Shown one piece after another: positions 45,455-46,250 of a stretch of 64,000 nt of DNA. The notes beneath the pieces were generated by a model. It had not been told where the DNA came from. It ran no database searches and saw only the letters and a list, made by a program, of their open reading frames with translations. The translations under genes and the position numbers were made by a program. The stretch's first letter is position 1. Each line of letters starts with the position of its first letter. The DNA lies in NCBI RefSeq assembly GCF_056746865.1, contig NZ_CM163382.1. One strand, written 5' to 3'.

Positions 45455-45535
45455 CTCCACCGTCACACCCGATGGGATTGTTGGGTTTCTCATCGTTAGC
45501 TACCGATTCTATATTCCAGACAGACTCGAGGTTTA
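45455..45535 (-). repeat. Truncated group II intron 5' fragment (intron positions about 33-110), cut by the IS3 right end
   Basis: Minus-strand sequence aaataaacctcgagtctgtctggaatatagaatcggtagctaacgatgagaaacccaacaatcccatcgggtgtgacggtggag aligns with 42735-42815. Confidence 0.5.
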
Positions 45536-46250
45536 TTTAAGAATCCATACCTGCTCGGCCTCCAGCACAGAAAACCGACACTCAAGCAGACTCGGCAGGC
45601 TGGTATGCTCCTGGCGGGCATTTTTGTACTGATATTTTCCGGGCTGAGCACTTCTCAGGTTCAGATGCTTCATCAGCCGCCTGGCACGACAACTGCTCAT
45701 CGGGATACCATTTTGAATCAGCATATCTGCCAGAGCACGCGCACCTGCGGAACCCCGACTCTGGTTCCAGACCCGGACTGTTTCGCTATACAATTTGATT
45801 CGCGCCGGATCAATCGTATTGAGCCGATTCTGCCAGTGCCGGAACTGCTGCAATGAGCATCCAGAGCAGCGCAAAGACTGACAATCGTGTGTCGCCGCTC
45901 AGTCTGGTAACTATCGTAAACCGTTCAGTGGGAAGGATATCAAGAGCACTGTAGCTTTTTAATATCGTTTTTTGTTCCTCCAGGCGACGAACCTGCTTTT
46001 CCAGCTCATGAATACGTTGCTACTCTGATGTGAGTGGTGATGCAGAAGACGTGGTATCCTGACGTTCCCGCCTGAGCTGACGTACCCATGCCCCCAGTGT
46101 ATAGGAACCGACATTCATAGCTTTGGCGGCATCTGCAACTGTGTAGTTCTGGTCAACAACCAGTTGAGCGGATTCGCGTTTAAACTCTGCGCTAAAATTT
46201 CTTTTTTTCATTAGGGCACCAGTCTTGTTCTGAGGTGAGCATATCACCTC
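45536..46250 (-). pseudogene. IS3-family element 5' part (orfA and truncated orfB); copy 2 of the 13113-13745 segment
   Basis: ORF 46020-46247 is full OrfA ([21 protein letters not shown]...); ORF 45533-45874 is identical to 13372-13713. Confidence 0.55.

What the first reader, a model, noticed from the sequence alone, without database searches (positions are those of the whole stretch)
45455..46123. Second intron copy reduced to a 5' stub and duplicated together with its host IS fragment
At 13113-13745 and, inverted, at 45505-46123 the same IS3-family fragment ends its orfB at EQVWILK and runs directly into sequence matching intron positions about 33-110. The first 32 intron bases and the DITY codons are absent, so a deletion fused IS to intron. 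In copy 2 the intron stub is cut exactly by the IS3 right end at 45454/45455. This records at least three ordered events: intron invasion, IS3 insertion, then segmental duplication. The two inverted copies 32 kb apart are substrates for inversion.
Basis: seen in the sequence. Interest (0 to 1): 0.5.

Follow-up and report, generated by a model that had tools for sequence, protein, structure and literature searches.

The report
Dead intron stub marking an inversion
Two decayed, inverted copies of an old insertion sequence in an E. coli genomic island carry the same broken piece of a group II intron, and comparison with other genomes shows that the 32 kb between them has flipped in nature; this is ordinary mobile-element wreckage, not a new system.

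Summary
Window 13123-13725 and 45521-46123 are a 603-nt, 100% identical inverted repeat. It is a pseudogenised IS911-like (IS3-family) element whose orfB stops at ...EQVWILK* and runs into group II intron sequence. In copy 2 the intron stub (45455-45548) matches resident intron positions 32-118 at 90.8% and ends exactly at the right end of an IS3-like element (45454). Comparison with K-12 IS911A::ykfC shows a 47-nt deletion at an ATGG microhomology, which removed 19 exon nt and intron nt 1-24.

Three corrections:
- The stub is not a copy of the resident E.c.I4 intron. It belongs to an older lineage about 9% diverged, and more of it survives beyond the IS3-like element in strain SCU-115.
- Copy 1 keeps only about 38 nt of intron and then the IS 3' end. 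The two copies are therefore independent decay products of one ancestor, not a late segmental duplication.
- The predicted inversion is real. 65 complete E. coli genomes carry the opposite orientation of the 31.8-kb interior, and 2 carry this one.

Within each genome the two copies are identical, although they differ between genomes, which indicates gene conversion. This is ordinary and of low interest.

The parts
45455..45544 (-). Long intron stub of copy 2: old E.c.I4-like group II intron, positions 29-118 (5' part of domain I). It has no 5' splice site, no domains II-VI and no ORF.
   Evidence: blastn gives 90.8% over 87 nt to resident intron positions 32-118, and 90.7% over 97 nt to the K-12 ykfC intron positions 22-118. 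Alignment.
45545..45548 (-). ATGG microhomology at the IS/intron deletion junction (13698-13701 in copy 1).
   Evidence: IS homology runs to TGG at 13701. Intron homology begins at ATGG, which is intron nt 25-28 in K-12.
45545..46283 (-). Copy 2 of the IS911-like pseudo-IS: left inverted repeat (TGAAATGGCACAC..., end at 46283), orfA with an in-frame stop (46023-46211), and the N-terminal 40% of orfB up to QVW. The DDE core and 3' end are absent.
   Evidence: Alignment to a complete IS911-like element (L008) covers window 46278 to 13701-equivalent at 75.6%. NCBIfam transpos_IS3 matches profile positions 108-220 of 369 only.
45521..46123 (-). Arm 2 of the 603-nt perfect inverted repeat, which is the recombination substrate.
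   Evidence: inversion breakpoints fall inside it.
13123..13725 (+). Arm 1 of the 603-nt perfect inverted repeat. The IS is 5'-truncated inside orfA at 13123.
13702..13739 (+). Short intron remnant of copy 1: intron nt about 29-53, a 12-nt deletion, then 14 nt with 2 mismatches relative to copy 2.
   Evidence: Alignment. This stretch is not covered by IS homology.
13740..13865 (+). 3' end of the IS911-like element in copy 1 (orfB C-terminus ...YILNYYNSVRPHNY..., right inverted repeat ending ...GAGCACTGCA). About 380 nt of the catalytic core are deleted.
   Evidence: blastn to L008 reference positions 1216-1341, 82.5%. Translations.
41942..45454 (+). IS3-like element that truncates the stub. 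Its orfB is interrupted after DITY by the resident E.c.I4 intron. There is no 3-bp target duplication (gac / ctc).
   Evidence: Terminal inverted repeats read. ORFs. RefSeq annotation.
42703..44972 (+). Resident full-length E.c.I4 group II intron (2270 nt, GTGTG...CTAC). ltrA (43374-44882) has an internal stop.
   Evidence: Rfam RF00029 domain V/VI at 44886-44972, 64 bits. TIGR04416 group_II_RT_mat E=2e-97. 98.3% identical to the K-12 ykfC intron.
13726..45520 (.). 31.8-kb interior (iha, amiC, many IS remnants) that is found in both orientations among E. coli genomes.
   Evidence: blastn of the window against strain XDL: 10959-13725 (+), 13123-26088 (-), 28540-46123 (-), 45521-50745 (+).

Best explanation
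This is non-functional debris from nested mobile elements, and it now serves only as homology for recombination.

Proposed history:
1. An E.c.I4-like group II intron homed into its usual site, just after the DxTY codons of orfB, in an IS911-like IS3-family element.
2. A 47-nt deletion between two ATGG tetranucleotides removed the last 19 exon nt and intron nt 1-24. The 5' splice site was lost and the intron could no longer splice.
3. Two descendants of this dead IS::intron composite lie inverted in an iha/sodC island.
   - Copy 1 lost its 5' end, almost all of the intron and the transposase core, but kept the IS 3' end.
   - Copy 2 kept the IS 5' end and the intron, which was then hit at position 118/119 by an IS3-like element that carries a younger E.c.I4 intron.
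4. In this lineage a 3-kb deletion next to that IS removed the rest of the old intron.
5. The 603 nt still shared by both copies recombine by general homologous recombination (inferred). This keeps them identical through gene conversion and flips the 31.8-kb interior.

What is shown: the sequence relationships, the junctions and the existence of both orientations. What is inferred: the order of events, RecA dependence, and which orientation is ancestral.
For: - Repeat and stub identities.
- IS identity: the orfB part aligns to IS911/ISEc31-type elements in about 2,300 records, and every listed hit of that type ends at query 372, which is window 13701. A closer intact relative reads ...GGTATGG TGT GGA GAT ATT ACG TAT at that point.
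- Intact reference junction in K-12 IS911A::ykfC...caggtgtgg tgcggtgatgtgacctat a|GTGTGCCCGGAGTTCAGGGCGGGCATGGATGCTTAAATG. The window reads ...caggtATGGATTCTTAAATA.
- The old intron continues in SCU-115 directly beyond the IS3-like left end: positions 332-464, 483-545 and 666-759 at 81-87% identity, in the same orientation as the stub. The window lacks these 3,029 nt.
- Inversion: the synthetic opposite-orientation joint is contiguous at 99.9% in 65 genomes. The window-type joint occurs only in EC6563 and HCM-24C-3. Collinearity with XDL breaks inside the repeat.
- Gene conversion: the two arms are identical within the window, XDL, HCM-24C-3 and EC6563, yet the window differs from the other three at 13150 (+G) and 13241 (G/A). 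The 14 nt just past the 12-nt indel carry 2 mismatches.
- Literature: E.c.I4 targets IS629, IS911, ISEc16 and ISEc31; fragments occur in MG1655; IS/intron tandems are suggested to be prone to rearrangement (PMC3522654).
Against: - No target-site duplications were found for either IS: gac/gtg for the IS911-like ends and gac/ctc for the IS3-like element. Insertion events are therefore inferred from structure only.
- MAFFT offers an alternative placement of the roughly 45-nt gap, inside the IS rather than across the junction.
- Which orientation is ancestral is unresolved. The single-copy outgroup AR_0085 has the window-type A-copy-B contiguity. SCU-115, which keeps the undeleted 3 kb, has the opposite orientation.
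- Identity of the repeat copies within an assembly could in principle be inflated by short-read polishing.
Confidence: 0.85

Rival explanations
1. The 5' junction is not a later deletion. It is a scar of abortive retrohoming: cDNA synthesis stopped about 24 nt short of the intron 5' end, and the end was joined to the upstream exon at an ATGG microhomology. This would resemble the 5' truncation of LINE elements.
For: The junction sits at a 4-nt microhomology. It removes both the intron 5' end and 19 nt of exon 1. The intron lies at the canonical E.c.I4 homing site and in the orientation of the transposase gene.
Against: Slipped-strand or microhomology deletion at any later time gives exactly the same product. 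The 3' junction, which should be intact under this model, is lost in every genome examined. Nothing distinguishes the two models.
Confidence: 0.12
2. The two copies arose by a recent segmental duplication of an already IS3-truncated IS+stub unit. Their 100% identity would then reflect youth rather than gene conversion.
For: 603 nt are 100% identical.
Against: - Copy 1 lacks the IS3 junction and 65 nt of the stub, and it carries the IS 3' end and right inverted repeat that are absent from copy 2.
- Copy 1 with both flanks exists in 178 genomes, some of them single-copy and 0.44% diverged.
- Two substitutions differ between genomes but are shared by both copies within each genome.
- Identity drops to 12/14 immediately past a 12-nt indel.
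Confidence: 0.03
3. The resemblance of the bases after EQVW to the intron is chance or low-complexity similarity.
For: None beyond the short length of the remnant in copy 1.
Against: 87-97 nt at about 91% identity, with E=9e-31 in the window and 5e-29 against 28 Gb of E. coli genomes. Further collinear intron segments lie beyond the IS3-like element in SCU-115.
Confidence: 0.01

Closest known systems
E.c.I4 group II intron fragments in IS3-family elements, for example the ykfC fragment inside IS911A of E. coli K-12 (CP4-6 prophage); Leclercq & Cordaux 2012, PMC3522654
   Same: The intron family, the homing site (after the DxTY codons of an IS911-type orfB) and the orientation are the same. Like ykfC, it is an inactivated fragment cut by another IS (IS5 in K-12, an IS3-like element here).
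   Different: The sequence is about 9% (positions 22-118) to 13-19% (positions 332-759, in SCU-115) diverged from E.c.I4. The 5' junction carries a 47-nt deletion. The host IS is only 75-79% identical to IS911 and no intact copy of it was found in E. coli.
Chromosomal inversions by homologous recombination between inverted IS copies (general RecA-dependent recombination between dispersed repeats; established knowledge)
   Same: There are perfect inverted repeats at the breakpoints. Both orientations occur among related genomes and no genes are disrupted.
   Different: The repeat is not an active IS but a 603-nt overlap of two differently decayed IS::intron relics. RecA dependence was not tested.
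Site-specific invertible segments (Hin/Gin/Fim-type switches)
   Same: A DNA segment bounded by inverted repeats is found in two orientations.
   Different: The repeats are 603 nt of pseudogene rather than short recombinase sites. No invertase gene is annotated in the parts of the region whose annotation was retrieved. The breakpoints lie in dead genes, so no promoter or gene switch is evident.

Membership tests
Group II intron (E.c.I4 lineage) | Sequence homology to the intron RNA (domain I 5' region) | tested here: met
   90.8% over 87 nt to the resident E.c.I4 and 90.7% over 97 nt to the K-12 copy. Collinear pieces up to position 759 are present in SCU-115.
Group II intron (E.c.I4 lineage) | 5' splice site GUGYG abutting exon 1 at the DxTY homing site | tested here: not met
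   Intron nt 1-24 and 19 exon nt are absent. The location is otherwise the expected site.
Group II intron (E.c.I4 lineage) | Catalytic domain V/VI and the intron-encoded RT/maturase | tested here: not met
   The only RF00029 hit in the window is the resident intron at 44886-44972. The stub ends at position 118. It is a fragment, not an intron capable of splicing or mobility.
IS3 family insertion sequence (IS911-like) | orfA/orfB transposase homology | tested here: met
   NCBIfam transpos_IS3 E=2e-14 (profile positions 108-220) and orfA E=6e-5. 75-83% nucleotide identity to an intact IS911-like element.
IS3 family insertion sequence (IS911-like) | Intact DDE catalytic core and both terminal inverted repeats in one unit with a target duplication | tested here: not met
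   The core (reference positions 836-1215) is deleted in copy 1 and absent in copy 2. The left inverted repeat is only in copy 2 (46283) and the right one only in copy 1 (13865). The flanks, gac and gtg, do not match.
Site-specific invertible switch | Short recombinase-binding inverted repeats plus an adjacent invertase gene | tested here: not met
   The repeats are 603-nt pseudogene sequence. No invertase appears in the RefSeq annotation retrieved for EC6563 (about window 14001-50745) and for XDL (about window 4871-50745 plus about 3.8 kb beyond). Window 1-4870 and 50746-64000 were not checked.

The most novel reading that the evidence does not exclude
The IS/intron junction could be a natural example of 5'-truncated group II intron insertion in E. 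coli. It would have formed by abortive target-primed reverse transcription, resolved at a 4-nt microhomology. That would mean bacterial group II introns can leave LINE-like dead-on-arrival copies.
Probability: 0.12. Interest if true: 0.4.

Novelty: new member of a known kind. Interest (0 to 1): 0.18.

Why it matters
The finding matters mainly for annotation and assembly. The stub is unannotated in RefSeq. The 603-nt repeat explains why a 32-kb virulence-associated segment (iha, amiC) appears in two orientations among E. coli genomes.

It is also a concrete case for a suggestion by Leclercq & Cordaux (PMC3522654), that IS/intron composites promote rearrangement. It shows concerted evolution of two dead elements. 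It does not reveal a new mechanism or function.

Tried and rejected
- **Full-length intron of the stub lineage.** None was found. A 20-nt stub-specific pattern gave 0 hits in genome contigs. In plasmids the listed full-length hits were 91.5% and only one record fell in the 95-99% band, which was not inspected. In E. coli genomes the records at 99% or more number 210, too many for the ~55 genomes that carry this locus; I take the surplus to be 32-nt matches to the repeat like those listed in H93-H95, though only one >=99% record (SCU-115) was actually inspected.
- **Target-site duplications.** None was found for the IS911-like ends or the IS3-like element, so they could not be used to fix the ancestral orientation.
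- **MAFFT's alternative alignment**, which puts the gap inside the IS and keeps a 'diverged intron 5' end'. I rejected it because IS homology runs collinearly to TGG at 13701 in every listed IS911/ISEc31-type hit. The protein motif F-x-V-x-E-x-x-Q-V-W is also kept, and the closest intact relative has GGTATGG there.
- **Right end of the IS in SCU-115.** I hoped the 'IS3 family' fragment after the old intron (L012 9824-9962) would be the matching right end of the IS911-like element with a target duplication. It is an unrelated mid-orfB fragment.
- **Polarity of the inversion.** It remains unresolved because AR_0085 and SCU-115 point in opposite directions.
- **EC6563 as the window's source.** It is not. 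It lacks the IS66 element at 26086-28536 and has the other repeat haplotype.

Full report
**What is in the sequence**

The repeat finder gives a 603-nt, 100% complementary inverted repeat, 13123-13725 against 45521-46123. It also gives a 94-nt, 88% match between 42727-42820 (inside the resident intron) and 45455-45548. Both repeat arms contain the ORF ending ...[10 protein letters not shown]. By blastn the stub matches resident intron positions 32-118 at 90.8% (87 nt, E=9e-31 in the window). The right inverted repeat of an IS3-like element ends at 45454 and the stub begins at 45455.

**Identity of the pieces**

The window is E. coli chromosome.

- *Resident intron.* It spans 42703-44972 (GTGTG...CTAC, 2270 nt) and sits after the DITY codons of an IS3-like orfB. 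It has a domain V/VI Rfam hit at 44886-44972 and a group_II_RT_mat ORF that RefSeq flags as a pseudogene with an internal stop. It is 98.3% identical to the ykfC intron fragment in K-12 IS911A. Leclercq & Cordaux list one E.c.I4 fragment in MG1655, which I take to be ykfC, and describe E.c.I4 as an intron that homes into IS629, IS911, ISEc16 and ISEc31 (PMC3522654).
- *Repeated IS fragment.* It is IS911-like: orfA starts [14 protein letters not shown]..., it matches NCBIfam transpos_IS3, and it is 75-83% identical to an intact relative (L008). It is a pseudogene with an in-frame stop in orfA and no DDE core.

**The IS/intron junction**

In K-12 the intact junction reads ...cag gtg tgg tgc ggt gat gtg acc tat a|GTGTGCCCGGAGTTCAGGGCGGGCATGGATGCTTAAATG.... 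The window reads ...cag gtA TGG ATT CTT AAA TAA....

- IS homology runs collinearly to the TGG at 13701 in every listed IS911/ISEc31-type hit. The closest intact relative has GGTATGG|TGTGGAGATATTACGTAT at that point.
- Intron homology starts at ATGG, which is intron nt 25-28.
- A 47-nt deletion between two ATGG tetranucleotides therefore removed 19 exon nt (CGDVTY plus 1 nt) and intron nt 1-24.

Whether the loss happened during or after retrohoming cannot be decided.

**The stub is not a copy of the resident intron**

The stub is about 9% diverged from both E.c.I4 copies, which differ from each other by 1.7%. No full-length member of its lineage was found in E. coli genomes, plasmids or representative genomes.

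In strain SCU-115 the same old intron continues immediately beyond the left end of the IS3-like element. Positions 332-464, 483-545 and 666-759 are present at 81-87% identity, in the same orientation as the stub, and interrupted by yet another IS fragment. The window, XDL, EC6563 and HCM-24C-3 lack those 3,029 nt, and there the IS3-like left end abuts a 5'-truncated ibrB-like gene.

So an IS3-like element carrying a young E.c.I4 really did insert into an older E.c.I4-like intron. Adjacent deletions followed (positions 119-331, then 3 kb). Neither IS has a target duplication.

**The two copies are not a simple duplication**

- *Copy 2* keeps the IS left end (left inverted repeat at 46283) and the 90-94-nt stub.
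- *Copy 1* is cut inside orfA at 13123. It keeps only intron nt about 29-53, has a 12-nt deletion and then 14 nt with 2 mismatches. It then joins the last roughly 125 nt of the IS, including the right inverted repeat (13740-13865).

Both share the 47-nt deletion, so they descend from one dead IS::intron composite and decayed independently. Copy 1 with both of its flanks (window 11204-14153, including sodC) is contiguous in 178 genomes. These include AR_0085, where it is the only copy and is 0.44% diverged.

**The inversion is real**

Most genomes matching 41900-46400 stop at 46123 and continue into the reverse complement of the sequence left of 13123. A synthetic joint, rc(46124-46700)+13123-14300, is contiguous at 99.9% in 65 genomes. 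The window against XDL gives 10959-13725 (+), 13123-26088 (-), 28540-46123 (-) and 45521-50745 (+). That is an inversion of the 31.8-kb interior with its breakpoints inside the repeat.

Only EC6563 and HCM-24C-3 share the window's orientation. The window's source is a third such genome, because EC6563 lacks the IS66 element at 26086-28536.

**Concerted evolution**

The two arms are identical to each other in the window, XDL, HCM-24C-3 and EC6563. The window differs from the other three at two sites, +G at 13150 and G/A at 13241. Identity falls to 12/14 just beyond the 12-nt indel. This pattern indicates gene conversion limited to the uninterrupted homology. One caveat is that assembly polishing can homogenise repeats.

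**Polarity**

AR_0085 is more diverged than any two-copy island and has the window-type A-copy-B contiguity. That argues the window orientation is ancestral. SCU-115 keeps the undeleted 3 kb yet has the opposite orientation. If both the 3-kb deletion and AR_0085's outgroup status are taken at face value, the segment flipped at least twice. This is an inference, not a demonstration.

**Comparison with what is known, and verdict**

This is an inactivated E.c.I4-family fragment in an IS911-type element, like ykfC in K-12. It sits nested with a younger IS::intron, and the two relic copies mediate an inversion by homologous recombination. No function is expected: the breakpoints lie in pseudogenes, and no invertase is annotated in the parts of the region whose annotation was retrieved. 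I class it as a new member of a known kind. The interest is low, apart from the modest possibility that the junction records abortive retrohoming.

Noticed in passing
window 26086-28536: An apparently intact IS66-family element (tnpA 28054-28458, tnpB 27710-28057, tnpC 26123-27661, all on the minus strand) is present in the window but absent from XDL and EC6563. The window's source genome is therefore not among the RefSeq complete genomes searched.
   Followed up: partly
window 55999-57702 and 60145-61848: A 1704-nt, 100% identical inverted repeat. It consists of two copies of an IS3-family element flanking an IS21-family element (istA 58503-60044, istB 57742-58491). This is another potential composite or invertible unit.
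   Followed up: partly
window 43374-44882: The ltrA gene of the resident E.c.I4 intron has an internal stop near 44601 and is annotated as a pseudogene in relatives. The full-length intron is therefore probably not autonomously mobile.
   Followed up: partly
window 43173-44039 vs L009 (HCM-24C-3): 14 of the 16 differences between the window and HCM-24C-3 over 4.5 kb cluster in 870 nt of the intron. This suggests patch conversion from another E.c.I4 copy.
   Followed up: no
window 41942 (left end of the IS3-like element) vs L012 8537-11565 (SCU-115): The window lineage has a 3,029-nt deletion directly adjacent to the IS3-like left end. It removed the rest of the old intron, an ibrA-like PAPS reductase gene and the 5' end of ibrB.
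   Followed up: yes
window 31277-31419 (-) and 9246-9367 (+): There are full-length Rfam matches to the Hfq-binding sRNAs isrN (138 bits) and STnc490 (129 bits), which lie in the island.
   Followed up: no
window 10467-10958 vs L005 5597-6906 (XDL): XDL has an IS1203 insertion where the window has about 490 nt of different sequence upstream of sodC.
   Followed up: no
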